In this document: piece by piece, positions 410-31,558 of the stretch
Layout: every line of letters starts with the position of its first letter
Numbering within the stretch: the stretch's first letter is position 1
Assembly: GCF_008065095.1 (NCBI RefSeq)
Contig: NZ_CP042911.1
Span: forward strand, 5,190,001-5,222,000
Source of the DNA: Gemmata obscuriglobus
GTDB taxonomy: Bacteria > Planctomycetota > Planctomycetia > Gemmatales > Gemmataceae
Length of the DNA: 32,000 nucleotides
Direction of reading: 5' to 3'
The notes under the pieces: model-generated
What the model saw: only the letters and a program-made list of their open reading frames with translations
Database searches by the model: none
Told to the model about the DNA's origin: nothing
Program-made: the position numbers and the translations under genes

Positions 410-548
410 CCCGCTCATGCAGCCCGGCAGATGAGCTACACCGATCCGCTCGCGCCTCGGGGGTGGGCGCGGGTCGGGCCAGCCACTTGGGATGGGGGGC
501 TGGCTACCCTATCGACATCGCGCCCACCCCCGTGGGTCTCGGCGCGGG
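353..548 (-). other. short ORF-less cassette, type B content (copy 1), dominated by a long hairpin
   Basis: 196 bp between two attC sites with no credible ORF. Perfect 13-bp arms GGGGGTGGGCGCG (459..471) / CGCGCCCACCCCC (519..531) enclose an inner 7-bp stem GCCAGCC/GGCTGGC (478..484 / 498..504). Duplicated at 16764..16959. Confidence 0.6.
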
Positions 549-639: not shown

Positions 640-895
640 TCGATGCCCTCGGCGTTTCCGGGTTGCACGCCGAGCGCCGCGCCTCCGCGGAGCCCGCGGC
701 ACCGGTGCGTGCGGGCGGAGCATCACCGCCTCGATGCGCCGTGTCGCGGCCCACCGAGGGCCACCCACCACTGCACCTCGCGGCGATGAGCCGCGCCAGC
801 ACCGACCGGCACCAGGCGGAGCCCGACACACGGGTTTCACCACCGCGGGCCACACGCCTACTGCCGCCGCACGCGCGCTCCTGCGACCTCGGGTT
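640..895 (-). repeat. ORF-less repetitive cassette, R family, 1 unit
   Basis: 256 bp between attC sites. R head, one unit with hairpin CGCGGC-GATGA-GCCGCG, and R tail. All six frames are open but low-complexity. Confidence 0.75.
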
Positions 896-1696: not shown

Positions 1697-2029
1697 TCGC
1701 TCACGTCCGCGCCGCGCATCCGCGGATGCCCGCGCCACCGATGCGGCCACGCGGAGCACCGCCGACCCGGAGCACCGTGTCGCCGCACGTCGGAGGCCAC
1801 CCACCACCCCCACTCGCGGCGACGAGCCGCGCCGACCACCGACCGGTGTTGGCGGAGCGCCACCGACCCGAACCGCCGTGTCCCCACCCGCCGCCCGCCA
1901 CGCCCAACCGCACCTCGCGGCGACGAGCCGCGCCCGCGCCCACCGGCACTCTGCGGAGCCCGACGCGCGGGGTTCACCCACGCGGACCACACGCACACCG
2001 CCGCACGGGCGCTCCAGCACGCGAGGGTT
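1697..2029 (-). repeat. ORF-less repetitive cassette, R family, 2 units
   Basis: 333 bp. Head contains palindrome GCATCCGCGGATGC. Two CGCGGC-GACGA-GCCGCG hairpins, then the R tail. Confidence 0.75.
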
Positions 2030-4760: not shown

Positions 4761-5177
4761 GTCTGTGAGCCACCGCACTGCGAAGTGGTCGTAGTGCAGG
4801 GCCGCGAACCGCTCGCGGAGTTGGGCCGCGAGCCACCAGAACTTGGCCCGGCGGTCGGCGGTCAGACCCGGGTCGGACCACACAGATAGCCGGCGGGAGC
4901 ACCCGGCGACCACCTCCGGCGGGGCCGGTAGGTCAGGGCCGGCGGCCAGTTCTGCGCTGTCGGCCAACACCTCCGCTCCCTCCTCCAACCACGCCACCAC
5001 GGCCCAGGAGGTGAACCGCACCCGGAAACCGGTTGGGCTACGGGCTTCGGGTGCTAACTCGGCCTGGACCGACCGCCGACCGCACTGTCGGCCATCGAAG
5101 TACGCGACAGCCGCAGCCAGAGAGAAGTCACTCGACGCCGGCAAGTGCGCCAACATCTTCAGACGACCGTTGCTCAT
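4725..5177 (-). CDS. hypothetical cassette protein
   Basis: Track ORF 4725..5558 trimmed to ATG 5177 (AGAGGG 6 nt upstream, 15 nt after the attC). The stop is in the attC loop. Confidence 0.6.
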   Translation of the reverse strand: MSNGRLKMLAHLPASSDFSLAAAVAYFDGRQCGRRSVQAELAPEARSPTGFRVRFTSWAVVAWLEEGAEVLADSAELAAGPDLPAPPEVVAGCSRRLSVWSDPGLTADRRAKFWWLAAQLRERFAALHYDHFAVRWLTDAEPGAAPDTAV

Positions 5178-5192
5178 CCGCGGCCCTCTGGT

Positions 5193-5283
5193 GCCGAACA
5201 TAAAGCTCACCTGCACCGCCATCACCGGATGAGCGGTGCGTCCCAAGTTAGCGGGCGGTGTCAGGTGCAGCGCCGGGTTCGGC
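5193..5283 (-). other. attC: attC recombination site (type A)
   Basis: 91 bp; canonical type A boxes. Confidence 0.85.
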
Positions 5284-5638
5284 TCGATGCCCTCGGGGGT
5301 TCCGGGCGCGCTCAGTGTCGCGCATCTGCGGATGCCCGGGCCACCGATGCGGCCGAGCGGAGCCCCACCGACTCGACCCGCCGGGTCGCGACACACCGGA
5401 GGCCACACACCACCGACACCTCGCGGCGATGAGCCGCGCCAGACACCCACGGGCACCACGCGGAGCACCACCGCCACGATCCGCCGTGTCCCTACGCACC
5501 ACCGGCCACCCCCAACCGCCACTCGCGGCGACGAGCCGGGCGGGCCACCGGCGGGCACGACGCGGAGCCCGAACCGCAGGGTTCACCACCGCGGACCACA
5601 CGCCCACGGCCGCACGCGCGCTCCTGCACGCGAGGGTG
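5284..5638 (-). repeat. ORF-less repetitive cassette, R family, 2 units
   Basis: 355 bp; R head, two units, R tail. Confidence 0.75.
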
Positions 5639-5729
5639 GCCGAACATACAGCTCACCTGCACCGCCATGATACAGTGAGCGGTGCGTCCCGAATCAGATG
5701 GCGGTGTCAGGTGCAGCGCCGGGTTCGGC
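5639..5729 (-). other. attC: attC recombination site (type A)
   Basis: 91 bp; canonical boxes; loop ATGATACAGTGAGCGGTGCG. Confidence 0.85.
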
Positions 5730-6087
5730 TCGCTTACCTCGGCGGTTCCGGGCCTCACGCTGAGCGCCGCGCATCCGCTGTGCGCGTGCCACCAATGCGA
5801 GCGTGCGGAGCACCACCGATCCGACGTACCGTGCCGCGGCCCACCGGAGGCCGGCACCAACCGCCACCCGCGGCGACGAGCCGCGCCAGCCCTGATCGGC
5901 ACCACGCGGAGCCCCACCGACTCGCGCCACCGTGTCCCCACTCACTGCCCGCCACGCCCAACCGCACCTCGCGGCGATGAGCCGCGCCGGCCACTCGCGG
6001 GCACCACGCGGAGCCCGACACGCACTGTTCACCTTTGCGGACCATACGTTCAGCGCCGCCGCACGCGCGATCGAGCGCCTTGGGGTT
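5730..6087 (-). repeat. ORF-less repetitive cassette, R family, 2 units
   Basis: 358 bp; R head, two units, R tail. Confidence 0.75.
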
Positions 6088-6178
6088 GCCGAACATAAAG
6101 CTCACCTGCACTGCCATCACCGGATCAGCGATGCGTCCCGAATCAGCGGGCGGTGTCAGGTGCAGCGCCGGGTTCGGC
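6088..6178 (-). other. attC: attC recombination site (type A)
   Basis: 91 bp; arm variant CACCTGCACTGCC. Confidence 0.8.
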
Positions 6179-6515
6179 TCGCTCACATCCGCGCCGCGCA
6201 TCCGCGGATGCCCGCCCACCGGTGCGACCGGGCGGAGCACCACCGAACCACGGCGCCGTGTCCCGACACATCGGGGGCCACCCACCACCGCCACACGCGG
6301 CGATGAGCCGCGCCCGCAACCGATCGGTCTCAGCGGAGCACCACCGACCCGCACCACCGTGTCCCCATCCGCACCCGGCCACAACCACCGCAAGCTCGCG
6401 GCGATGAGCCGCGCCAGGCGCCCATAGGCACCACGCGGAGCCACCACTGACGCGCGGGGCTTACTCACGCGGACTACACGCCCAGCACCGCCGCACGCGC
6501 ATGCACGCGATGGTG
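6179..6515 (-). repeat. ORF-less repetitive cassette, R family, 2 units
   Basis: 337 bp. The first ~226 bp are identical by eye to 13730..13955, then the two diverge. Confidence 0.75.
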
Positions 6516-6606
6516 GCCGAACATAAAGCTCACCTGCACCGCCATCACCGGATGAGCGGTGCGTCCCAGAACAGATGGCGGTGTCAGGTGCAGCGCCGGG
6601 TTCGGC
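6516..6606 (-). other. attC: attC recombination site (type A)
   Basis: 91 bp; canonical type A boxes. Confidence 0.85.
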
Positions 6607-6963
6607 TCGCTGCCGTCCGCGGTTCGGGGTCGCACGTCCGCGCCGCGCATCCGCGGAAGCCCGTGCCACCGATGCGGGCGAGCGGAGCGCCACCGACCCG
6701 ATGCACCGTGTCCCGGCCCACCGGAGGCCACGCCCAATCGCACCTCGCGGCGACGAGCCGCGCCGGCCGCCCACGGGCACCACGCGGAGCACCACCGACA
6801 CGAAACGCCGTGTCCCATGACACCGCCGGCCACGCCCAACCGCACCTCGCGGCGATGAGCCGCGCCACACGCCCACGGGCACCACGCGGAGCCCGACACG
6901 CGCCGTTCACCCACGCGGACCACACGCACGGCACCGCCGCACGCGCGATCGAGCAACTCGGGT
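6607..6963 (-). repeat. ORF-less repetitive cassette, R family, 2 units
   Basis: 357 bp; R head, two units, R tail. Confidence 0.75.
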
Positions 6964-7054
6964 GCCGAACATAAAGCTCACCTGCACCGCCATCATACAG
7001 TTAGCGGTGCGTCCCAGACTAGCGGGCGGTGTCAGGTGCAGCGCCGGGTTCGGC
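6964..7054 (-). other. attC: attC recombination site (type A)
   Basis: 91 bp; canonical boxes; loop ATCATACAGTTAGCGGTGCG. Confidence 0.85.
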
Positions 7055-7450
7055 GTCCGCGGCGCTCCCCGCGCGTGAGAACGGCTGAAATGCCCGATCC
7101 GCAACCCGGATCTGTATCAGCCCGGTCGTTCCAAGCACCTCGATCAGCCCGTCACGTATCTCCGGCGGCCGGCCTTCCAAGAGTCGCATGATCGCCATGT
7201 TCGGGCCGGACGTGCTGACGGATTCGACGCACCCGGTCACACGGTCCACAACCGCCATATTGATCCCGCCAGCGAGCCAGTGGTCGGAAGGAACCTGCGT
7301 CGAGTCAGCGGGGTGGTAAGCCAGCATCCAGCCCCACTCATACTCCCGCGTCTGGTGTTCGTCGACGACCAGCCCGACACCGAGTTCGGACTCCCAGAGC
7401 CCGGACCAGCGGTCGATTACCAGCCGCTTCGCGTCTTCGTAGCTGACGAT
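7019..7450 (-). CDS. YrhB / Imm35-like protein, no canonical start codon
   Basis: The track ORF starts at ATG 7327, but the frame stays open and protein-like for 41 more codons (IVSYEDAKRLVIDRWSGLWESELGVGLVVDEHQTREYEWGW). These run up to an ATC that lies 6 nt after AGGAGG. Overall pattern (N-terminal ..SYE.A..., GW.L.Y, LAGG....VD..TG) resembles YrhB-type immunity proteins as I recall them. The stop is in the attC loop. Confidence 0.45.
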   Translation of the reverse strand: MVSYEDAKRLVIDRWSGLWESELGVGLVVDEHQTREYEWGWMLAYHPADSTQVPSDHWLAGGINMAVVDRVTGCVESVSTSGPNMAIMRLLEGRPPEIRDGLIEVLGTTGLIQIRVADRAFQPFSRAGSAADAEPGAAPDTAR

Positions 7451-7476
7451 TACCAGCCTCCTTCGCTTCTCTTCCC

Positions 7477-7567
7477 GCCGAACATAAAGCTCACCTGCAC
7501 CGCGGCGTCCCGAGTAGCAGTGCGTTCCAAGTCAGACGGCGGTGTCAGGTGCAGCGCCGGGTTCGGC
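7477..7567 (-). other. attC: attC recombination site (type A)
   Basis: 91 bp; arm variant CACCTGCACCGCG. Confidence 0.8.
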
Positions 7568-7578
7568 GCCTGCGGCAC

Positions 7579-8100
7579 TCACCAGAACCGCCACCAGCGT
7601 CGACGCGGGGCCGACCCAACGGCGGCCTCGAAGTCGGCCTCTAGCACCTTCACCAACCCGGGACGGCCGGCGGCTCCGATCGCATCCAGGGCGAACCCGA
7701 GCGCCTCCCGGGCCGGCCGTGCCGACTCACCCGCCGCGGCTTCCGCCGCCTTCGCCGCGTGCTCCGCCACCTTCGCGGCGAACGACGCGACCAGCGCCGC
7801 CTCGGGGCCGGCCGGGCCGGGGTCGTGCTCCGCCTCGTCGGGCTCCAGCGGCACCGGGTAGTGGTACGGGATCAGCGCCCGACCGGCCGCCGCAAGGGCA
7901 TCAATGTACGCCGCCCGCAGCCCGCCGCACGCCTGCCGCTCGGCCGCGGACTGCTCGGCCAGCGCGATGGCCCGGTCGACAGCTGCGACTCGGGTTGGGG
8001 CGGCATCCGGCCACGCCTCGGCGAACAGCGGCTGAACGCGGCGGGCGCACCGCACGGCAAAGGCCACCCGCAACCAGTGTGGCAGCCGTTCTGGGTCCAC
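7579..8100 (-). CDS. alanine-rich alpha-helical hypothetical protein (N-domain family shared with 24372..24863 and 8216..8908)
   Basis: The C-terminal 173 codons of chimeric track ORF 7579..8697, trimmed to GTG 8100 (GGAGGGGGG 6 nt upstream). Shares the block LRVAFAVRCARRV with LRLFAAGCVRRAW in 24372..24863. Confidence 0.5.
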   Translation of the reverse strand: MDPERLPHWLRVAFAVRCARRVQPLFAEAWPDAAPTRVAAVDRAIALAEQSAAERQACGGLRAAYIDALAAAGRALIPYHYPVPLEPDEAEHDPGPAGPEAALVASFAAKVAEHAAKAAEAAAGESARPAREALGFALDAIGAAGRPGLVKVLEADFEAAVGSAPRRRWWRFW

Positions 8101-12168: not shown

Positions 12169-12501
12169 TTCTGCGCGGGCCGTTGCGGTTCCGCGGAGCC
12201 CGCGCTCGTACCGCGCATCCGCGGAGCCACCACCGACCCGCACCACCGTGTCGCGGCCCACCGGTGGCCGCCCAACACCGCACCTCGCGGCGATGAGCCG
12301 CGCCGACCACCCACCGGCACCACGCGGAGCACCACCGACCCGCACCACCGTGTCCCCACCCACACCGGGCCACGACCACCCGCACCTCGCGGCGGTGAGC
12401 CGCGCCCACCCCGACCGGCACCACGCGGAGCCCGACGCGCGGGGTTTACCACCGCGGACCACATGCCCACCGCCGCACGCGCGCTCATGCACGCGATGGT
12501 T
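12169..12501 (-). repeat. ORF-less repetitive cassette, R family, 2 units
   Basis: 333 bp; TTCTGCGC-type head; two units; R tail. Confidence 0.75.
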
Positions 12502-13155: not shown

Positions 13156-13162
13156 GTCTGGG

Positions 13163-13618
13163 CTACCCCCGCCAGACCACCTGCACGCCGGCAAGCTCGA
13201 TGCCGCCTGGCCCGGCGGCGAGTTGCCCGGCCTTGCGGTTAAGCAGGGCCGGCCCGAAGCACTCGCCGAACCCGACCCGCTCCCCGCAGTGCAGGAAGCT
13301 GACGTACGGCCAGCGGTAGAACGACCCCCGCACCTTCTCGGGGGCGTCTCGCCAGCCGAGCAACTGGCCGGGCCGGCCGCACTCCCGTACCCCGGCGTCC
13401 GTCACCTCCCACCACTGGAAGGTGCTGCCGTGGTCGAACTGCCCGCGCTCCAGGTCGCCGTCCGCGACTTGGTAGATGTACAGCGCGTCGAACGCGGCGA
13501 GGTCGGCGACGCGGACCCCGAATGAGTCGGCCACGTAGTCGAGGAAACGCGGCGTGCGGTGCCACGACCAGACGTCGGCCAGTGCCTCAGCGACCGAACG
13601 CGACGGCTGCGGCTCCAT
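13163..13618 (-). CDS. hypothetical cassette protein, 151 aa (copy 1 of 3)
   Basis: Complete track ORF with ATG 10 nt after GAGGG. Protein is identical to 14773..15228 and differs at one residue from 26322..26777. Confidence 0.65.
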   Translation of the reverse strand: MEPQPSRSVAEALADVWSWHRTPRFLDYVADSFGVRVADLAAFDALYIYQVADGDLERGQFDHGSTFQWWEVTDAGVRECGRPGQLLGWRDAPEKVRGSFYRWPYVSFLHCGERVGFGECFGPALLNRKAGQLAAGPGGIELAGVQVVWRG

Positions 13619-13638
13619 CGGTCGAGCGCCCTCGGGTG

Positions 13639-13729: not shown

Positions 13730-14063
13730 TCGCTCACATCCGCGCCGCGCATCCGCGGATGCCCGCCCACCGGTGCGACCGGGCGGAGCACCACCGAACC
13801 ACGGCGCCGTGTCCCGACACATCGGGGGCCACCCACCACCGCCACACGCGGCGATGAGCCGCGCCCGCAACCGATCGGTCTCAGCGGAGCACCACCGACC
13901 CGCACCACCGTGTCCCCATCCGCACCCGGCCACAACCACCGCAAGCTCGCGGCGAAGAGCCGCGCCAGCCCCAACCGGCACCACGCGAAGCCCGACGCGC
14001 GCGGTTCACCACCGCGGACCACACGCACACCGCCGCACGCGCGCCCTCATGCACGCGATGGTT
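13730..14063 (-). repeat. ORF-less repetitive cassette, R family, 2 units
   Basis: 334 bp. The left ~226 bp are identical to R cassette 6179..6515; the right part differs. Confidence 0.75.
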
Positions 14064-14765: not shown

Positions 14766-14772
14766 GTCTGGG

Positions 14773-15228
14773 CTACCCCCGCCAGACCACCTGCACGCCG
14801 GCAAGCTCGATGCCGCCTGGCCCGGCGGCGAGTTGCCCGGCCTTGCGGTTAAGCAGGGCCGGCCCGAAGCACTCGCCGAACCCGACCCGCTCCCCGCAGT
14901 GCAGGAAGCTGACGTACGGCCAGCGGTAGAACGACCCCCGCACCTTCTCGGGGGCGTCTCGCCAGCCGAGCAACTGGCCGGGCCGGCCGCACTCCCGTAC
15001 CCCGGCGTCCGTCACCTCCCACCACTGGAAGGTGCTGCCGTGGTCGAACTGCCCGCGCTCCAGGTCGCCGTCCGCGACTTGGTAGATGTACAGCGCGTCG
15101 AACGCGGCGAGGTCGGCGACGCGGACCCCGAATGAGTCGGCCACGTAGTCGAGGAAACGCGGCGTGCGGTGCCACGACCAGACGTCGGCCAGTGCCTCAG
15201 CGACCGAACGCGACGGCTGCGGCTCCAT
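14773..15228 (-). CDS. hypothetical cassette protein, 151 aa (copy 2 of 3)
   Basis: Identical translation to 13163..13618. Confidence 0.65.
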   Translation of the reverse strand: MEPQPSRSVAEALADVWSWHRTPRFLDYVADSFGVRVADLAAFDALYIYQVADGDLERGQFDHGSTFQWWEVTDAGVRECGRPGQLLGWRDAPEKVRGSFYRWPYVSFLHCGERVGFGECFGPALLNRKAGQLAAGPGGIELAGVQVVWRG

Positions 15229-15248
15229 CGGTCGAGCGCCCTCGGGTG

Positions 15249-15339: not shown

Positions 15340-15672
15340 TTCTGCGCCCCGCGCCGCGCATCCGCGGAGCCCGCCCACCGACGCGGCCGAGCGGAGCCAC
15401 CACCGACCCGCACCACCGTGCCGCGGCACACCGGTGGCCGCCCACCACCGACACCCGCGGCGATGAGCCGCGCCCGGCACCCACGGGCACCACGCGGAGC
15501 ACCACCGCCACGAACCGCCGTGTCCCCCCCCGCCACCGGCCACGCCCACCGCAAGCTCGCGGCGACGAGCCGCGCCGGTCGCACTCGGGCACCACGCGGA
15601 GCCCGATACTCGCCGTTTACCACCGCGGACCACACGCACACCACCGCACGCGCCATCGAGCGGCCTCGGGGT
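15340..15672 (-). repeat. ORF-less repetitive cassette, R family, 2 units
   Basis: 333 bp; TTCTGCGC-type head; two units; R tail. Confidence 0.75.
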
Positions 15673-16820: not shown

Positions 16821-16959
16821 CCCGCTCATGCAGCCCGGCAGATGAGCTACACCGATCCGCTCGCGCCTCGGGGGTGGGCGCGGGTCGGGCCAGCCACTTG
16901 GGATGGGGGGCTGGCTACCCTATCGACATCGCGCCCACCCCCGTGGGTCTCGGCGCGGG
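16764..16959 (-). other. short ORF-less cassette, type B content (copy 2), dominated by a long hairpin
   Basis: Duplicate of 353..548. The 13-bp perfect-arm hairpin is at 16870..16942. Confidence 0.6.
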
Positions 16960-17050: not shown

Positions 17051-17403
17051 TCGCTCCGCACCGCGGTTCCTGGCCACGGGCCGAGCGTCGCGCATCCGCG
17101 GAGCCCGTGCCACCGGTGCGGGCGTGCGGAGCACCACCGACTCGACGCACCGTGTCGCGGCCCACCGGAGGCCACCCACCACCGCACCTCGCGGCGATGA
17201 GCCGCGCCAGGCACCCACGGGCACCACGCGGAGCACCACCGACTCGAACCGCCGTGTCCCCACGCGCCCCCGGCCACGCCCACCCGCACTTCGCGGCGAC
17301 GAGCCGCGCCAACCACCGACCGGCACCACGCGGAGCCACCACCGTCTGATGCCCCGCGGACCACACGCCCACCGCCGCCCGCGCGCTCCAGAACGCCCGG
17401 GTG
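17051..17403 (-). repeat. ORF-less repetitive cassette, R family, 2 units
   Basis: 353 bp; R head, two units, R tail. Confidence 0.75.
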
Positions 17404-17493
17404 GCCGAACATAAAGCTCACCTGCACCGCCCGTCCCGAGGAGCGATGCGTCACAAGTCAGCCGGCGGTGTCAGGTGCAGCGCCGGGTTCGGC
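17404..17493 (-). other. attC: attC recombination site (type A)
   Basis: 90 bp; canonical boxes. Confidence 0.85.
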
Positions 17494-17954
17494 TCGCTCA
17501 CATCCGCGGTTCGGGGGCACACGCCGAGCACCGCGGCTCCGTGGATGCCCGCGGCACCGGTGCGGCCCTGCGGAGCATCACCGACTCCGCGCCCCGTGTC
17601 CCGGCCCACCGAGGGCCACCCACCACCGACACCTCGCGGCGGTGAGCCGCGCCCGCCACCAACGGCGCCACGCGGAGCACCACCGACACGACCCGCCGTG
17701 TCCCGGCACACCGGAGGCCACGCCCACCACCGCACCTCGCGGCGATGAGCCGCGCCGACCACCCACGGGCCACACGCGGAGCACCACCGACCCGCACCGC
17801 CGTGTCCCGACACATCGGAGGCCACGCCCAACCGCAAGCTCGCGGCGATGAGTCGCGCCAGACCCGACCGGCACCACGCGAAGCCCGACGCGCGCGGTTC
17901 ACCACCGCGGACCACACGCACACCGCCGCACGCGCGCTCCTGCACGCGATGGTT
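17494..17954 (-). repeat. ORF-less repetitive cassette, R family, 3 units
   Basis: 461 bp. Three tandem ~102-105-nt units start near 17570, 17672 and 17776. Confidence 0.75.
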
Positions 17955-18044
17955 GCCGAACGAACAGCTCACCTGCACCGCCAGGATGGAGTGAGCGACA
18001 CAACGGCGGCTGATGGCGGTGTCAGGTGCAGCGCCGGGTTCGGC
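17955..18044 (-). other. attC: attC recombination site (type A, loop subtype 2)
   Basis: 90 bp; loop AGGATGGAGTGAGCGACACAACGGCGG. Confidence 0.85.
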
Positions 18045-18404
18045 TCGCTCGCCTCCGCGGTTCCGGGCGACACGCCGAGCTTGGCGCATCCGCGGAACCC
18101 GCGGCACCGGTGCGGCCGAGCGGAGCCCCACCGACTCGAATCGCCGTGTCGCGGCCCACCGGTGGCCACCCATCACCGCACCTCGCGGCGACGAGCCGCG
18201 CCCGCCCTGACGCGCGCCACGCGGAGCACCACCGACCCGAACCGCCGTGTCCCCACCCGCACCCCGGCCACGCCCAACCACACCTCGCGGCGACGAGCCG
18301 CGCCCGCCCCGACCGGCACCACGCGGAGCCACCACCGACGCGTGGGCGTCACCTTCGCGGACCACACGCCCACCACCGCACGCGCGATCCAGAACGCGAA
18401 GGTG
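18045..18404 (-). repeat. ORF-less repetitive cassette, R family, 2 units
   Basis: 360 bp; R head, two units, R tail. Confidence 0.75.
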
Positions 18405-18495
18405 GCCGAACATAAAGCTCACCTGCACCGCCATCACCCGATGAGCGGTGCGTCCCAACTCAGCCGGCGGTGTCAGGTGCAGCGCCGGGTTCGGC
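18405..18495 (-). other. attC: attC recombination site (type A)
   Basis: 91 bp; canonical type A boxes. Confidence 0.85.
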
Positions 18496-18498
18496 GCC

Positions 18499-18978
18499 TC
18501 AGCGCCAACGCCCGCGAGGCCACACGCCCCAGACGGTGGCCGGCCCGGAACGCGGCGGCCGTGCCTCCGCCCATGTGGACAGGCGGAGCGGCAGATACGC
18601 CCCGCCCGCCTCGAAGCTGGTCCCGGACGCGAACTCGACCCGGTACCGCGCCCCGTCCCGCGCGGCGAACCGCAACTCCGGGTGCCACGTCTCGTGCTCC
18701 CCGCCGACCCACAGCCCGAACCACGACTGGCCGGAGTCGGGGTAGCGCGCCTCGGGCATGACCAGCCGGACCCCGGTGTAGTCGACAGCCAGGACCTGTG
18801 GGACTGGGGCACCCTCCGCGACCAAGGCCACCCCGTACGGGAAGACTGCCGCGTCGGCTTCGTTGGTGCAATGGGCGTAGAAGTGGAAGTCCCACCCACC
18901 GCCCGCCACCGGCGCGAACCACGCGATGAGGACGCGGAAGTCGGTCGGGCCAAGCTGCAACTCGCCGCATACCTCCAC
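18499..18978 (-). CDS. hypothetical cassette protein
   Basis: 159-aa track ORF with a GTG start 19 nt after the attC. Aromatic-rich, non-repetitive composition. It stops 3 nt before the attC. Confidence 0.55.
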   Translation of the reverse strand: MEVCGELQLGPTDFRVLIAWFAPVAGGGWDFHFYAHCTNEADAAVFPYGVALVAEGAPVPQVLAVDYTGVRLVMPEARYPDSGQSWFGLWVGGEHETWHPELRFAARDGARYRVEFASGTSFEAGGAYLPLRLSTWAEARPPRSGPATVWGVWPRGRWR

Positions 18979-19088: not shown

Positions 19089-19425
19089 TTCTGCGCCCAC
19101 CGTCGCGGTTCCGCGGAGCCCGCGCCCGCGCCGCGCATCCGCGGAGCCACCACCGACCCGCACCACCGTGCCGCGGCACACCGGTGGCCGCCCACCACCG
19201 ACACCCGCGGCGGTGAGCCGCGCCCGCCAACCACGGGCACCACGCGGAGCACCACCGACCCGCACCACCGTGTCCCCACCCACACCGGGCCACGACCACC
19301 CGCACCTCGCGGCGGCGAGCCGCGCCAACCACCAGCAGGCCACACGCGGAGCCCGACACCCGGGGTTCACCCACGCGGACCACACGCCCACTACCGCCGC
19401 ACGCGCGCTCCTGCACGCGATGGTT
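19089..19425 (-). repeat. ORF-less repetitive cassette, R family, 2 units
   Basis: 337 bp; TTCTGCGC-type head; two units; R tail. Confidence 0.75.
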
Positions 19426-22093: not shown

Positions 22094-22345
22094 TCGCGGA
22101 CCACCGCGGTTCCGGGCACACGCTCCGCACCGCAGCTCCGCGGAGCCCGCGCCCCGGTGCGGCCCTGCGGAGCACCACCGACCCGCATCACCGTGCCGCC
22201 GCACACCGGAGGCCACGCCCAACCGCACCTCGCGGCGATGAGCCGCGCCACACACCGGCGGGCACCACGCGGAGCCCGACACCGGAGTTCACCCACGCGG
22301 ACCACACACGCGCGCGCCGCACGCGCACTCATGCACGCTTGGGTG
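22094..22345 (-). repeat. ORF-less repetitive cassette, R family, 1 unit
   Basis: 252 bp; head, a single unit, tail. Confidence 0.75.
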
Positions 22346-23094: not shown

Positions 23095-23451
23095 TCGCTG
23101 CCGTCCGCGGTTCCGGGCGACACGCCGAGCGCCGCGCATCTGCGGATGCCCGCGGCACCGGTGCGACCGGGCGGAGTGCTACCGACTCGATGCGCCGTGT
23201 CCCGGCCCATCGAGGGCCACGCCCACCGCTACACGCGGCGACGAGCCGCGCCCCTACCCACGGGCACCACGCGGAGCGCCACCGACCCGAACCGCCGTGT
23301 CCCCACACACCGCCGGCCACGCCCAACCGCACCTCGCGGCGACGAGCCGCGCCAGCACCGACCGGCACCACGCGAAGCCCGACACGCGAGACTCACCACC
23401 GCGGACCACACGCTCAGCGCCGCCGCACGCGCCCTCATGCCCTCGGGGGTT
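23095..23451 (-). repeat. ORF-less repetitive cassette, R family, 2 units
   Basis: 357 bp; R head, two units, R tail. Confidence 0.75.
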
Positions 23452-23539
23452 GCCGAACTTCGGAGCTCAGGCGCGCGCGGCTGGATAAAGCTGCGCTCCC
23501 GAGCCGCGACCGCGCGTCGCCTGCAGCGTCTGGTTCGGC
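23452..23539 (-). other. attC: attC recombination site, divergent type C
   Basis: 88 bp. GCCGAAC-N8-CAGGCGCGCGCGG...CCGCGCGtCGCCTG-N8-GTTCGGC. The unpaired T sits on the same arm as in type A. Confidence 0.6.
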
Positions 23540-24973: not shown

Positions 24974-25331
24974 TCGCTCGCCTCCGCGGTTCCGAGCGAC
25001 ACGTCCAGCGCCGCGCATCCGCGGAGCCCGGGCCACCGGTGCGGCCGAGCGGAGCAGCACCGACCCGACGCGCCGTGCGCGGCCCATCGGAGGCCGGCCA
25101 CCACCGCACCTCGCGGCGACGAGCCGCGCCCGCCCTGACGCGCGCCCCGCGGAGCACCACCGACCCGGACCGCCGTGTCCCCACCCGCCGACGGCCACGC
25201 CCAACCGCACCGCGCGGCGGCGAGCCGCGCCACACACCCACGGGCGCCACGCGGAGCGCCACACCACCGCCGGACGCCCCGCGGACCACACGCCCAGCTC
25301 TGCCGCACGCGCCCTCATGCACGCGATGGTA
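24974..25331 (-). repeat. ORF-less repetitive cassette, R family, 2 units
   Basis: 358 bp; R head, two units, R tail. Confidence 0.75.
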
Positions 25332-26314: not shown

Positions 26315-26321
26315 GTCTGGG

Positions 26322-26777
26322 CTACCCCCGCCAGACCACCTGCACGCCGGCAAGCTCGATGCCGCCTGGCCCGGCGGCGAGTTGCCCGGCCTTGCGGTTG
26401 AGCAGGGCCGGCCCGAAGCACTCGCCGAACCCGACCCGCTCCCCGCAGTGCAGGAAGCTGACGTACGGCCAGCGGTAGAACGACCCCCGCACCTTCTCGG
26501 GGGCGTCTCGCCAGCCGAGCAACCGGCCGGGCCGGCCGCACTCCCGCACCCCGGCGTCCGTCACCTCCCACCACTGGAAGGTGCTGCCGTGGTCGAACTG
26601 CCCGCGCTCCAGGTCGCCGTCCGCGACTTGGTAGATGTACAGCGCGTCGAACGCGGCGAGGTCGGCGACGCGGACCCCGAATGAGTCGGCCACGTAGTCG
26701 AGGAAACGCGGCGTGCGGTGCCACGACCAGACGTCGGCCAGTGCCTCAGCGACCGAACGCGACGGCTGCGGCTCCAT
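26322..26777 (-). CDS. hypothetical cassette protein, 151 aa (copy 3 of 3)
   Basis: Differs from copies 1 and 2 by one residue (RPGQLLGW to RPGRLLGW) plus a few synonymous changes. Its downstream attC loop differs from that of copies 1 and 2. Confidence 0.65.
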   Translation of the reverse strand: MEPQPSRSVAEALADVWSWHRTPRFLDYVADSFGVRVADLAAFDALYIYQVADGDLERGQFDHGSTFQWWEVTDAGVRECGRPGRLLGWRDAPEKVRGSFYRWPYVSFLHCGERVGFGECFGPALLNRKAGQLAAGPGGIELAGVQVVWRG

Positions 26778-26797
26778 CGGTCGAGCGCCCTCGGGTG

Positions 26798-29821: not shown

Positions 29822-30156
29822 TTCTGCGCCCACCGTCGCGGTTCCGCGGAGCCCGCGCTCGTACCGCGGATCCGCGGAGCCACCACCGACCCGCACCACC
29901 GTGCCGCGGTACACCGGAGGCCACCCCCCACCTCACCTCGCGGCGACGAGCCGCGCCCGCCCTAACGCGCACCACGCGGAGCACCACCGACCCGACCCGC
30001 CGTGTCCCGAGGCACCGCCAGCCGCGCCCAACCGCACCTCGCGGCGACGAGCCGCGCCCACCCCGACCGGCACCACGCGGAGCCCGACGCGCCGGCGTCA
30101 CCTTCGCGGATCACACGCCCACCGCCGCCGCACGCGCGATCGAGCGCCTCGGGGTT
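29822..30156 (-). repeat. ORF-less repetitive cassette, R family, 2 units
   Basis: 335 bp; TTCTGCGC-type head; two units; R tail. Confidence 0.75.
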
Positions 30157-30490: not shown

Positions 30491-31558
30491 TAGGACTTAC
30501 GTAGTTGACTTTTGGGTAAGTAGGTATGTAGGTGCGGCGAGGTAGGTTCGCACCGCTTCGCGCACGATGGCCGTCTTGGCCGCGAACCAACTGACGCCGG
30601 ACTTGAGCCGGTGCCACTCGAGCCGCAGGAACGCGCGGATCGCGAGCCCGATGTGGACCGCTTGGGCCCGGCTCATGCGCACCTGGCACCGGTCCACGTG
30701 GCAATGCTGCTTGAGGCCCCGGTGATACTCCTCGATGCCCCACGCGTGCCCGGCCAGAACCGCACGAGTGGCCTCGTCCATGTCGAGGTCGTTGGTGATC
30801 CAATGCTCCGTGCCCCCATCACCGGTGGCGATCCGGAACGCCTTCACCAATCCGAACCCCTCCAGGTGCACCACCGTACCGGCGGCCCCGATCGGGCACC
30901 CCTCGATGGCCCGATTGCCCGTGCGATCCGGGTTCACCCGCCGGTTGCTCCGCACCCGGGTCAGGAAGTGCCACCCCAGGGCCCGCACCGCCTTCAGGTT
31001 GTCCTTGCCCGAGTACCAGGTGTCGAACAGTACCACCCGGGGCGACAGGTCCCGTCCCTTGGCGACCGCCAGCATGGCTCGGAAGTGGTCGTTCTTGGTC
31101 TCGGCTCGGGCCGGGTCGGCGAGCCGGTAATCACACGGTACCAGGGCGGCCCCGTCGGTCCACAGCAGGGTCACCAGCCCGATCCCGCTCACCACCCGGC
31201 GGTGCCGCCCGGACCAGCACCGGCGCACCAGCCCCATGTGCCGGGCGAACGGCTTGTCCAGCACCGAGTCGTCGAGCACCACGGCACCGCCCGGGCGGAC
31301 CGACGACCGGGCTTCGTCCCACAACGCCGCTGGGTCCGGTTCCAGCCGGTGCAGCAGTCGGGTGAACGCATCATGCGCGGGCGCCGTCGGATGGTCCGGT
31401 TGGGCTCGCGCGGCTTCCGCGGCCGACGCCACCTTGGGGGTGGCGATCAGGAATTGGATGTAGTCCTCGGCGCTCGCACGTGGTGCGTTCATGGCCCGAT
31501 CATAGACCAACAACACACCATGCGCAAATCCTGCGCCAGCGCAACTGCGTAAGTCCTA
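30491..31558 (-). mobile_element. insertion sequence, 1068 bp, IS4/IS701-superfamily-like
   Basis: Terminal inverted repeats TAGGACTTACG(T/C)AGTTG at 30491..30507 and 31542..31558 (16/17). They are flanked by direct TTCGA repeats (30486..30490 and 31559..31563). The element carries a single transposase ORF and interrupts a cassette ORF. Confidence 0.8.
30497..31516 (-). CDS. DDE transposase (IS4/IS701-like)
   Basis: 339-aa track ORF (GTG start; ATG at 31492 is probably the real start). Candidate acidic/DDE-type blocks include VVLDDSVLDKP, VLFDTWYSG and WGIEEYHRGLKQ. The PAHDAFTRLL block reminds me of proteins annotated as IS701-family; family assignment is from memory. The stop lies inside the left IR. 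Confidence 0.75.
   Translation of the reverse strand: MLLVYDRAMNAPRASAEDYIQFLIATPKVASAAEAARAQPDHPTAPAHDAFTRLLHRLEPDPAALWDEARSSVRPGGAVVLDDSVLDKPFARHMGLVRRCWSGRHRRVVSGIGLVTLLWTDGAALVPCDYRLADPARAETKNDHFRAMLAVAKGRDLSPRVVLFDTWYSGKDNLKAVRALGWHFLTRVRSNRRVNPDRTGNRAIEGCPIGAAGTVVHLEGFGLVKAFRIATGDGGTEHWITNDLDMDEATRAVLAGHAWGIEEYHRGLKQHCHVDRCQVRMSRAQAVHIGLAIRAFLRLEWHRLKSGVSWFAAKTAIVREAVRTYLAAPTYLLTQKSTT

What the first reader, a model, noticed from the sequence alone, without database searches (positions are those of the whole stretch)
5284..6963. A large family of ORF-less, internally repetitive, strand-asymmetric cassettes (R family): 17 of 61 cassettes
Seventeen attC-bounded units share one architecture. 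They are 640..895, 1697..2029, 5284..5638, 5730..6087, 6179..6515, 6607..6963, 12169..12501, 13730..14063, 15340..15672, 17051..17403, 17494..17954, 18045..18404, 19089..19425, 22094..22345, 23095..23451, 24974..25331 and 29822..30156. Read on +, each has a head containing palindromes GCATCCGCGGATGC and CACCGGTG. Next come 1-3 tandem ~100-nt units with conserved blocks GCGGAGCACCACCGAC ... CCGCCGTGTCCC ... CCACGCCCAACCGCACCTCGCGGCGAYGAGCCGCGCC ... GCACCAC. Last is a conserved tail ...GTTCACCMMCGCGGACCACACGC...GCACGCGCGCTCCTGCACGCGA. Every unit contains the hairpin CGCGGC-(GAYGA/GGYGA)-GCCGCG, 33 copies in the window by my count. I judge them non-coding. Unit lengths differ by non-multiples of 3, and the same block is translated in different frames in adjacent units. 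For example, in track ORF 17451..18953 one unit reads RGSSPRGVVGRGRGAGGDTAVRVGG and the next reads RGSSPRGAVMGGHRWAATRRFESVG. Composition is extremely strand-biased: my hand count of unit 17672..17775 gives C 51, G 29, A 20, T 4. That argues for a strand-specific role as RNA or single-stranded DNA rather than neutral junk. Four lie back to back here and three more at 17051..18404. I know of no described integron cassette family or RNA family like this.
Basis: seen in the sequence. Interest (0 to 1): 0.85.

Follow-up and report, generated by a model that had tools for sequence, protein, structure and literature searches.

The report
Repeated gene-less integron cassettes in Gemmata
About a quarter of the mobile cassettes in this Gemmata obscuriglobus integron array are copies of one conserved, roughly 340-base non-coding element whose function is unknown; it resembles the repeated non-coding cassettes already described in Vibrio.

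Summary
The window is a large chromosomal integron array of Gemmata obscuriglobus with 58 attC sites. Seventeen cassettes form one family (R). All 33 copies of the hairpin CGCGGC-GRYGA-GCCGCG lie on the + strand (0.08 expected by chance).

R is not protein-coding:
- G+C is flat across the three codon positions.
- The hairpin-to-hairpin distance is 101, 102 or 103 nt.
- Conservation shows no period of 3.
- There are no Pfam hits. The only protein-database matches are spurious Gemmata "hypothetical proteins" that read R in all three frames.

About half of the columns are at least 90% conserved, although copies are only about 75% identical overall. Neighbouring copies are no more alike than random pairs, and G. 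algarum carries the same family. This points to purifying selection on short sequence blocks.

I found no Rfam match, no excess folding stability, almost no covariation, no sigma-70 promoter or intrinsic terminator, no conserved G-quadruplex and no effect on attC folding. The strand asymmetry sits in the conserved blocks, not the spacers.

My best reading, at low confidence, is a strand-specific nucleic-acid element on the attC bottom strand that displays small hairpins and C-rich blocks to a binding factor. A selfish cassette is the main rival. Highly repeated, lineage-restricted non-coding cassettes are already known from Vibrio, so this is a new member of a known kind.

The parts
640..895 (+). 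R cassette body, 1 unit (hybrid of units A and B)
   Evidence: 1 hairpin
1697..2029 (+). R cassette body, 2 units, short head
5193..5283 (+). attC site (+ strand is the bottom strand) belonging to cassette R5284
   Evidence: Extrahelical T and C lie in the 3' arm. In-silico folding probability about 0.9
5284..5638 (+). R cassette body, 2 units (hairpins 5422-5438 and 5524-5540)
5639..5729 (+). attC site
5730..6087 (+). R cassette body, 2 units (hairpins 5869-5885 and 5970-5986)
6088..6178 (+). attC site
6179..6515 (+). R cassette body, 2 units, short head (hairpins 6296-6312 and 6397-6413)
6516..6606 (+). attC site
6607..6963 (+). R cassette body. Head 6607-6681, unit A 6682-6783 (hairpin 6746-6762), unit B 6784-6885 (hairpin 6848-6864), tail 6886-6963
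6964..7054 (+). attC site
12169..12501 (+). R cassette body, 2 units, TTCTGCGC-head subfamily
13730..14063 (+). R cassette body, 2 units (94% identical to 6179-6515)
15340..15672 (+). R cassette body, 2 units
17051..17403 (+). R cassette body, 2 units
17494..17954 (+). R cassette body, 3 units
18045..18404 (+). R cassette body, 2 units
19089..19425 (+). R cassette body, 2 units
22094..22345 (+). R cassette body, 1 unit
23095..23451 (+). R cassette body, 2 units, followed by a divergent attC at 23453-23539
24974..25331 (+). R cassette body, 2 units
29822..30156 (+). R cassette body, 2 units

Best explanation
R is a lineage-restricted family of ORF-less integron cassettes, found in Gemmata obscuriglobus and G. 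algarum. Each is a non-coding element of about 340 nt: a head, two old ~101-nt modules (A and B; rarely 1 or 3) and a tail. It is always in the same orientation relative to its attC and is presumably moved by the integron integrase like any other cassette (inferred, not tested).

About half of its positions are held constant by selection. The conserved parts are short C-rich blocks (GCGGAGCACCACCGAC, CCGTGTCCC, CCACGCCCAACCGCACC, GGCACCAC, CGCGGACCACACGC) and a 6-bp G+C hairpin capped by the loop G-R-Y-G-A.

Shown here: it is an attC-bounded cassette, it is non-coding, it is multi-copy, its sites evolve at very unequal rates, and it is confined to this lineage in the collections searched.

Inferred mechanism, at low confidence: it acts as a single-stranded nucleic acid read on the + strand. 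This is the attC bottom strand, antisense to the cassette genes. It could be an RNA, or the single-stranded DNA that integron recombination exposes. Its role would be a multivalent display of hairpins and unpaired sequence blocks for a sequence-specific binding factor, that is, a decoy, recruitment or regulatory element, and not a large self-folding RNA.

I put the identity part (non-coding mobile cassette family under constraint) at about 0.9 and the mechanism at about 0.3.
For: Context: 57+1 attC sites. All 25 cassettes with clear codon periodicity are coded on the - strand, so + is the attC bottom strand. The window is G. obscuriglobus.

Non-coding:
- G+C is 0.72-0.80 at all three codon phases in 16 of the 17 R bodies (the phases differ by at most 0.08), whereas coding cassettes typically show about 0.5/0.7/0.85-0.97. 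The exception is R18045 (0.88/0.70/0.73), which still has a stop in that frame.
- The spacing between invariant hairpins is 101, 102 or 103 nt.
- Conservation has no period of 3.
- No Pfam hit in any long frame.
- Database "proteins" read the same block in all three frames, for example RGSSPR, AAHRRE and ARLVAA.

Constraint:
- 177 of 358 columns are at least 90% conserved and 94 are below 70%, while mean pairwise identity is 0.75.
- Adjacent copies are no more similar than random pairs (0.753 against 0.749), so recent tandem duplication does not explain the runs.
- G. algarum copies are as close to G. obscuriglobus copies (0.86-0.87) as paralogues are to each other.

Hairpin: among about 94 distinct copies the loop is GATGA 31, GACGA 30, GGTGA 18, GGCGA 14. 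Positions 1, 4 and 5 are fixed, position 2 is always a purine and position 3 (with one exception, GAAGA) a pyrimidine.

Strand:
- Stem variants are G-T on + in 3 copies and A-C in none.
- The unit-A mini-hairpin runs GC17, GT6, AT5, AC1.
- From memory of the lambda and P22 boxB hairpins (a lead only): G-R-Y-G-A can adopt a GNRA-like fold with the third base extruded, whereas the complementary loop UCRYC matches no motif I know.

A display of binding sites, not a large self-folding structure: no excess stability, and nearly all predicted pairs are invariant.
Against: There is no expression data, so nothing shows that either strand is transcribed on its own. No partner protein has been identified.

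The evidence for the + strand rests on a handful of variant cells that are not independent. The helices were predicted on the + strand, which biases wobble counts. RNAalifold on the - strand also finds G-U-rich helices.

The conserved CCGCGG and TCCGCGGA palindromes would suit a double-stranded DNA-binding protein equally well.

In draft contigs, R makes up most of some arrays and forms runs of 4-8 copies. That looks more like proliferation than like a dosed function.

The family was found in only one small lineage. Protein-space searches over 5.8 billion clusters returned only G. obscuriglobus, a metagenome scan found no copy, and the only other carrier seen is G. algarum.
Confidence: 0.35

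Rival explanations
1. R is a selfish or neutral passenger cassette. It carries no host function and has multiplied through integrase-mediated excision and re-insertion, and through recombination between arrays. It persists because a short non-coding cassette costs nothing. The conserved blocks would then reflect selection at the level of the cassette (features that help its own mobilisation) or gene conversion.
For: R accounts for 17 of about 59 cassettes here. Draft contigs hold roughly 20 of about 31 cassette positions in L122, 6 copies in L183 and 9 in L184, though these contigs share identical pieces with the window and may be chimeric.
There are runs of 4-8 consecutive copies.
Copies occur in at least 5 genome regions.
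The family is lineage-restricted, like the Vibrio non-coding families for which Boucher 2006 proposed the same idea.
All attC sites have a high predicted folding propensity, so cassettes should be highly mobile.
Against: The features expected to aid self-mobilisation were tested and not found. R bodies neither raise nor lower the folding probability of flanking attC bottom strands, and they are not unusually unstructured or structured as ssDNA.
Gene conversion should homogenise whole tracts and make neighbours or same-genome copies more alike. Instead invariant blocks alternate with near-random spacers, neighbours are not more alike, and subfamilies are shared between the two species.
28% invariant columns across copies only about 75% identical overall is hard to obtain without site-specific constraint.
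Confidence: 0.3
2. R is a protein-binding array that works as double-stranded DNA. It would be analogous to BIME/REP mosaics or to iterated operator sites. The conserved CCGCGG/TCCGCGGA palindromes and repeated CGCGG cores would bind a host factor such as a nucleoid protein, gyrase or regulator that organises or silences the array.
For: CCGCGG occurs at 7.9 per kb in R against 1.2 per kb elsewhere in the window, at three conserved positions.
The blocks are invariant without covariation.
The architecture is modular with a variable number of units.
Against: A double-stranded site does not explain why all 17+ cassettes keep one orientation relative to attC. It also does not explain why the rare stem changes are G-T on one strand. 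That said, orientation is fixed for any cassette by the way it inserts.
No periodicity of about 10.5 or about 34 bp among the motifs is convincing.
Confidence: 0.12
3. R is a cassette-borne transcription signal (promoter, terminator or insulator) that sets the expression of neighbouring cassettes far from the integron promoter.
For: Intra-array, cassette-borne promoters exist in large arrays, and non-coding cassettes are transcribed in Vibrio sp. DAT722 (PMC2945992).
R copies are scattered through the array roughly every 3-4 cassettes.
On +, the RNA would be C-rich and nearly free of start and stop codons, which resembles a Rho-loading site. This is an inference only.
Against: There is no sigma-70-like promoter and no intrinsic terminator in 5000-7600 on either strand.
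R has no A+T-rich stretch.
Runs of 4-8 consecutive copies are redundant for a promoter or terminator.
The many distinct conserved blocks exceed what either signal requires.
Planctomycete and ECF-type promoters are not covered by the scan, so this is not excluded.
Confidence: 0.1
4. R is a decayed or unusual protein-coding gene family, for example a repeat protein.
For: Long stop-free frames exist on both strands (376 and 500 aa on -). Annotators called genes there, for example GobsT_11460.
Against: The open frames follow from base composition: T is 7.6% on +, so A is equally rare on -.
G+C is flat across codon positions in 16 of 17 R bodies.
Spacing between invariant blocks changes by 1 or 2 nt.
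Conservation has no period of 3.
There are no Pfam hits.
The same block is read in three frames in database entries.
The frames run straight through attC sites.
Confidence: 0.02

Closest known systems
Highly paralogous non-coding cassette families of Vibrio chromosomal integrons (Boucher et al. 2006, PMC1382264)
   Same: Both are attC-bounded cassettes without a gene. Both have many diverged paralogues within one array (45 and 34 copies in two V. vulnificus strains). Both have close homologues only in related species, and conservation suggests purifying selection. Function is unknown in both cases, and the same two hypotheses were raised (selfish, or promoter/RNA).
   Different: There is no sequence relationship. 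The host phylum is different (Planctomycetota, about 70% G+C). R has a defined internal architecture (two ~101-nt modules, a GRYGA hairpin, C-rich blocks), and I cannot say whether the Vibrio families share it. Under the Vibrio paper's working definition (no ORF longer than 150 bp), R would fail literally, because spurious long frames arise from base composition.
REP/BIME mosaic elements of enterobacteria
   Same: Both are non-coding, G+C-rich and hairpin-containing. Both are modular with a variable number of tandem units. Both have many copies per genome and a debated function.
   Different: BIMEs are extragenic elements between genes of operons and are not attC-bounded cassettes. Their unit is a 35-40 nt palindrome. 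No sequence similarity was found. This comparison is from memory and was not tested.
boxB-type GNRA-like pentaloop hairpins (lambda and P22 nut sites)
   Same: Both have a short G+C stem capped by a 5-nt loop that starts with G and ends with A. One loop base is free to vary, which is compatible with a GNRA fold with one extruded base.
   Different: R has no boxA-like partner, no phage context and no N-like protein. The loop rule here is G-R-Y-G-A. The resemblance is recalled from memory and is a lead only.
Multi-site protein-sponge sRNAs (CsrB/RsmZ type)
   Same: Size is similar (about 350 nt). Both carry a repeated short conserved motif containing GGA (GCGGAGC three to four times, CCGGAGG, CGCGGAC) separated by variable spacers.
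   Different: The motif lacks the A(N)GGA context. It is not predicted to sit in hairpin loops. GGA is not enriched beyond composition: by hand count, about 6-7 observed against about 5 expected. R is not a stand-alone gene with its own promoter and terminator.

Membership tests
Integron gene cassette | Bounded on both sides by attC sites: imperfect palindromes with inverse core sites (RYYYAAC ... GTTRRRY) | tested here: met
   Every R body lies between two sites that run from GCCGAAC to GTTCGGC and are about 91 nt long. The core is GTTCGGC, which departs from GTTRRRY at one position.
Integron gene cassette | attC folds as a hairpin on one strand with extrahelical bases; one orientation throughout the array | tested here: met
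   Two extra bases (T and C, 6 nt apart) lie in the 3' arm on +. In-silico folding probability is about 0.9 alone and about 0.3 with 150 nt of context on each side. All sites are on the same strand. All 25 cassettes with clear codon periodicity are coded on the opposite strand.
Integron gene cassette | Mobilised by an integron integrase (intI with attI nearby) | not testable with these tools
   No intI or attI lies in the window or in the fetched contigs. The window's upstream end holds an IS transposase instead.
Paralogous non-coding cassette family (sense of Boucher 2006) | No protein-database match in any frame and no synonymous-site pattern among homologues | tested here: met
Paralogous non-coding cassette family (sense of Boucher 2006) | No ORF longer than 150 bp | tested here: not met
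   Stop-free frames span whole cassettes. This follows from 7.6% T on + at about 77% G+C (R bodies) and does not indicate coding.
Paralogous non-coding cassette family (sense of Boucher 2006) | Many paralogues in the array; homologues only in close relatives | tested here: met
   17 copies in the window and dozens more in other G. obscuriglobus contigs. G. algarum carries the family. There was nothing in the metagenome scan and nothing from other taxa in protein space.
Any Rfam RNA family | Covariance-model score at or above the gathering threshold | tested here: not met
   0 hits over the window. At E up to 5 there were only two chance matches to Ms_IGR-2, at 17.6 and 14.7 bits against a threshold of 45. 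No tRNA or tmRNA.
Structured non-coding RNA (generic) | Conserved secondary structure supported by compensatory changes and/or excess stability | tested here: inconclusive
   Covariation terms are -0.69 (+) and -0.48 (-). 4 of 46 pairs have changes on both sides and most pairs never vary. Folding z-scores are +0.55 and +1.01 as RNA, and -0.46 and -0.20 as ssDNA. Invariant stems can neither prove nor disprove pairing.
Protein-coding gene | One conserved reading frame with codon-position bias | tested here: not met
G-quadruplex / R-loop-prone G-rich repeat (class-switch-like) | Conserved runs of four G3+ tracts on the G-rich strand | tested here: not met
   A canonical motif occurs in only 3 of 17 R cassettes.
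Type III antitoxin or CRISPR-like processed repeat arrays | Near-identical short tandem repeats next to a cognate protein gene | tested here: not met
   Units are about 101-104 nt, only 75-85% alike, and usually just two per cassette. There is no gene inside the cassette.
attC-derived sequence | Significant similarity of R to the attC consensus | tested here: not met
   The best local alignments score 17-18 against a shuffle mean of 17.6-18.6.

The most novel reading that the evidence does not exclude
R is a new class of integron-borne functional nucleic acid. It would be a ~340-nt bottom-strand RNA or ssDNA scaffold whose repeated GNRA-like hairpins and C-rich blocks bind a specific host or integron factor (for example the integrase, SSB or an RNA-binding regulator). 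Through that binding it would tune cassette dynamics or array expression in Gemmata. That would give the first defined molecular role for the long-puzzling non-coding cassettes of large chromosomal integrons.
Probability: 0.2. Interest if true: 0.8.

Novelty: new member of a known kind. Interest (0 to 1): 0.5.

Why it matters
Large chromosomal integrons often contain many gene-less cassettes, and nobody knows whether these are junk, selfish DNA or regulators. R is an unusually clean case for study. It has dozens of diverged copies with sharply defined invariant blocks, a simple two-module layout and one fixed orientation, in a cultivable Planctomycete.

That makes the question testable in several ways:
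- the conserved hairpin and blocks can be used as baits;
- the blocks can be scrambled;
- cassette movement and neighbour expression can be measured.

There is also a practical point. Current annotations of G. obscuriglobus list more than 20 hypothetical proteins that are translations of R and attC sequence.

Tried and rejected
- Rfam at gathering and at permissive thresholds: nothing.
- Pfam on ten long frames from both strands: nothing.
- Derivation of R from attC: alignment is no better than shuffles. The motifs shared with attC (GATGAGC apex, CCGAAC, GTGTC) are not collinear.
- Bottom strand selected to be unstructured: rejected. The ssDNA z-scores are -0.46 and -0.20 and do not differ from other cassettes.
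- R bodies help or hinder attC folding: rejected. Median log10 folding probability in context is -0.34 to -0.82 with R neighbours and -0.48 without.
- G-quadruplex or R-loop element: a canonical motif in only 3 of 17.
- Sigma-70 promoter or intrinsic terminator: none. I also looked by eye for ECF-type GGAAC...CGT spacing and found no fit.
- Sub-periodicity of about 34 nt, or helical phasing of the CGCGG cores: not supported.
- Small conserved ORF at the sense 5' end: start and stop are not conserved (by eye on A3).
- CsrA-type sponge: the GGA motifs are conserved but not enriched, lack the A(N)GGA context, and are not in predicted loops.
- First genome-collection scan: my pattern was too loose. 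117 of 120 loci were chance matches in G+C-rich genomes, and only the three G. algarum contigs were real.
- Metagenome scan with a double-hairpin pattern: 60 loci, none a true R.
- Fetching the complete G. obscuriglobus chromosome around the GobsT genes: failed for three proteins. Only 2008 draft contigs were obtainable. These share identical cassettes with the window in a different order and may be chimeric.
Full report
**What the window is.** The 32 kb window is about 70% G+C. It carries 57 near-identical attC sites of about 91 nt, from GCCGAAC to GTTCGGC, all on one strand, plus one divergent attC at 23453-23539. A spurious ORF across three R cassettes is 100% identical to a product called on contig ABGO01000195 of assembly GCA_000171775.1, and that contig is the reverse complement of part of the window. 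Other hits carry GobsT_ locus tags of Gemmata obscuriglobus. The window is therefore part of a large chromosomal cassette array of G. obscuriglobus.

Among cassettes with clear codon periodicity (third-position G+C above 0.82 and an open frame), 25 of 25 are coded on the - strand. Because cassette genes lie on the top strand, the + strand is the attC bottom strand, which is the strand that folds and recombines. This agrees with two extra unpaired bases in the 3' arm on +, seen directly in the sequence. G-C skew is negative on + across the whole window. That would place bottom strands on the leading-strand template, as in 25 of 30 sedentary integrons (PMC5371416). This last point is an inference.

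**The observation.** It is confirmed.
- The 17 intervals align over their whole length, and a profile built from them recovers each at E of 1e-21 to 1e-88.
- The hairpin CGCGGC-GRYGA-GCCGCG occurs 33 times, always on +, against 0.08 expected.
- TRF reports an internal period of 102-104 nt with 2.1-2.9 copies at 75-85% match. It also reports a 446-450 nt period for the four adjacent cassettes at 5192-7054.

Some details need correcting. The perfect 14-nt palindrome and the exact tail string each occur in only 3 of 17 copies, and CACCGGTG in 11. What is really conserved is TCCGCGGA, CCGCGG (three conserved positions; 7.9 per kb in R against 1.2 per kb elsewhere), GCGGAGC and CCGTGTCCC. Fourteen of the 17 copies have exactly two units. 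R is therefore better described as one element of about 340 nt with an old internal duplication (unit A carries an extra mini-hairpin, unit B does not) than as a free-running tandem array.

**Not a gene.**
- In 16 of the 17 R bodies, G+C is 0.72-0.80 at all three codon phases, differing by at most 0.08; neighbouring coding cassettes typically show about 0.5, 0.7 and 0.85-0.97. R18045 is the exception (0.88/0.70/0.73), but that frame is interrupted by a stop.
- The distance between the two invariant hairpins is 101 nt (7 cases), 102 (7) or 103 (2).
- Column conservation has no period of 3: rank 150 of 180 frequencies.
- Ten long frames from both strands give no Pfam match.
- Searches of 5.8 billion protein clusters with frames from both strands return only G. 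obscuriglobus hypothetical proteins and a few unnamed entries. These contain translated attC (EPNPALHLTPP) and read the hairpin block in all three frames.
- The long open frames follow from composition: T is 7.6% on +, so A is equally rare on -, and every stop codon needs both.

**Evidence of constraint.** In an alignment of 29 two-unit copies (window, a second G. obscuriglobus contig, and G. algarum), 177 of 358 columns are at least 90% conserved. About 100 are invariant, and 94 fall below 70%. Meanwhile mean pairwise identity over 32 distinct copies is only 0.75, and a copy's nearest relative is typically 84-90% identical.

If all sites evolved equally, only a few percent of columns would stay invariant at this divergence. 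This is a rough star-tree estimate of my own. Adjacent copies are no more alike than random pairs (0.753 against 0.749). G. algarum copies are as close to G. obscuriglobus copies (0.86-0.87) as paralogues are to each other. So neither recent tandem duplication nor within-genome homogenisation explains the pattern.

The strand asymmetry is a property of the conserved columns (C .51, G .34, A .10, T .04). The variable columns (A .21, C .34, G .28, T .16) look like the rest of the array.

**Distribution.** The same family, with the same attC type, is present in Gemmata algarum JC673: four adjacent copies on a 3.3 kb contig and two short contigs. In G. obscuriglobus it occurs in at least five separate regions, judged from locus tags around GobsT_113xx-115xx, 372xx-373xx, 437xx-446xx, 467xx-469xx and 638xx-639xx. 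Other draft contigs carry about 20, 6 and 9 copies, including runs of 4-8. Those draft contigs share identical pieces with the window in a different order and may be chimeric.

A metagenome scan for two hairpins 80-94 nt apart returned 60 loci, none of them R. Every full copy I could inspect is attC-bounded. The one exception is a 66-nt inverted fragment of the tail beside an unusual ~150-nt palindromic site at the upstream end of contig L122.

**What it is not.**
- No Rfam family matches, even at E up to 5, and there is no tRNA or tmRNA.
- Neither strand folds better than dinucleotide shuffles: RNA z-scores are +0.55 and +1.01 for one copy, and ssDNA mean z-scores over 16 copies are -0.46 and -0.20.
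- Consensus folding finds only short local helices on either strand, with covariation terms of -0.69 and -0.48. Most pairs never vary, so they say nothing either way.
- There is no sigma-70-type promoter or intrinsic terminator.
- A canonical G-quadruplex motif occurs in only 3 of 17 copies.
- R is not detectably derived from attC.
- R neighbours do not change the predicted folding probability of attC bottom strands. That probability is uniformly high, about 0.9 alone and about 0.3 with 150 nt of context on each side.

**What the conserved parts suggest.** Among about 94 distinct hairpins the loop is GATGA (31), GACGA (30), GGTGA (18) or GGCGA (14). Positions 1, 4 and 5 are fixed, position 2 is a purine and position 3 a pyrimidine, with a single exception (GAAGA). 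The only recurrent stem change is C to T, which gives a G-T wobble on + (3 copies); none gives a wobble on -. In unit A a 3-4 bp mini-hairpin (CCGR-NNNN-YCGG) shows GC in 17 copies, GT in 6, AT in 5 and AC in 1. That is the expected route for a helix read on +.

These are few events and they are not independent, but they point the same way. From memory of the lambda and P22 boxB hairpins, a G-R-Y-G-A loop can form a GNRA-like fold with the third base flipped out. I treat this as a lead, not a test.

Many distinct invariant blocks, no long-range structure, fixed orientation and two or three repeats of the same module fit best with a single-stranded display of binding sites on the + strand. That strand could act as an RNA antisense to the cassette genes, or as the bottom-strand DNA that the integron machinery exposes. 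I give this mechanism about 0.3. The main rival is a selfish cassette with no host function, also about 0.3. It is favoured by the sheer copy number and the runs of copies, but it is weakened because the two self-serving effects I could test were absent and because the block pattern is not what gene conversion produces.

**Comparison with what is known.** Boucher et al. 2006 (PMC1382264) reported that Vibrio arrays contain 6-49% non-coding cassettes. They found these to be often highly paralogous (45 and 34 copies of one family in two V. vulnificus strains), with close homologues only within vibrios, apparently under purifying selection, and either selfish or carrying promoters or regulatory RNAs. 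Michael and Labbate 2010 (PMC2945992) found non-coding cassettes to be transcribed.

R fits that kind in every respect except the literal "no ORF longer than 150 bp" rule, which cannot hold at R's base composition (about 77% G+C). What appears new is the family itself, its host phylum, and its well-defined two-module anatomy with a constrained pentaloop hairpin. I found no paper linking Gemmata to integron cassettes of this type.

**Verdict.** The feature is real and non-coding, and it is a new member of a known but unexplained kind. Interest is moderate: a specialist would not be surprised that such cassettes exist, but R offers a sharp handle on an old open question.

Noticed in passing
window 1-32000: The whole window is one cassette array of Gemmata obscuriglobus with 58 attC sites. 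The attC arms are almost identical, and the sites have a very high predicted bottom-strand folding probability (about 0.9). By that measure the cassettes should be highly recombinogenic, unlike many Vibrio VCR sites.
   Followed up: partly
window 13156-13638, 14766-15248, 26315-26797: The same 483-nt coding cassette (157-aa frame on the - strand, third-position G+C 0.90-0.92) occurs three times. Two of the copies sit immediately downstream, in the sense direction, of an R cassette.
   Followed up: no
window 23453-23539; also L086 (G. algarum) about 1620-1716: These are attC sites of a different sequence type embedded in an otherwise homogeneous array, so the array mixes cassettes of more than one attC lineage.
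   Followed up: no
window 30497-31516 (- strand): This is a DDE transposase (PF01609, E 5.5e-13), an insertion sequence at the upstream end of the array where intI/attI might have been expected. A 313-aa call of the same length as the opposite-strand ORF here (30611-31552, +) appears in another array contig (L184 9582-10523), but I did not compare the sequences and that call overlaps R copies.
   Followed up: partly
window, all attC apexes (e.g. 5226-5241) compared with R hairpins: The apex of most attC bottom strands is CACCG-GATGAG-CGGTG. It shares GAYGAGC with the R hairpin loop on the same strand. Overall similarity between R and attC is not significant, so this may be coincidence.
   Followed up: partly
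L121/L122/L183/L184 gene calls; GobsT_11330-11520, 37270-37380, 43780-44640, 46780-46930, 63810-63910: More than 20 annotated hypothetical proteins (up to 500 aa) are translations running through R bodies and attC sites, recognisable by EPNPALHLTPP. These are annotation artefacts.
   Followed up: yes
L121, L122, L183 (other parts of the arrays): Many coding cassettes encode SUKH/SMI1_KNR4 and Barstar-type immunity proteins and an S21-like protein. The SUKH expansion in G. obscuriglobus noted by Zhang et al. 2011 (21 paralogues, PMC3113570) therefore appears to be at least partly integron-borne.
   Followed up: no
L122 541-760: A 66-nt fragment of the R tail in inverted orientation abuts an unusual ~150-nt palindromic site (GCCGAAC to GTTCGGC) at the upstream end of that array. 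It is mirrored by the start of the first R cassette. This could be an inversion or rearrangement junction.
   Followed up: no
window 459-478 and 16870-16889: The identical G-quadruplex-type string GGGGGTGGGCGCGGGTCGGG lies on the + strand in two different cassettes, which suggests another duplicated cassette.
   Followed up: no
L122, L183, L184 compared with the window: The 2008 draft contigs share identical 60-mers with the window, but in a different order. Either the cassettes are shared between arrays or the draft contigs are chimeric assemblies of repeats. Copy counts from those contigs should be treated with caution.
   Followed up: partly
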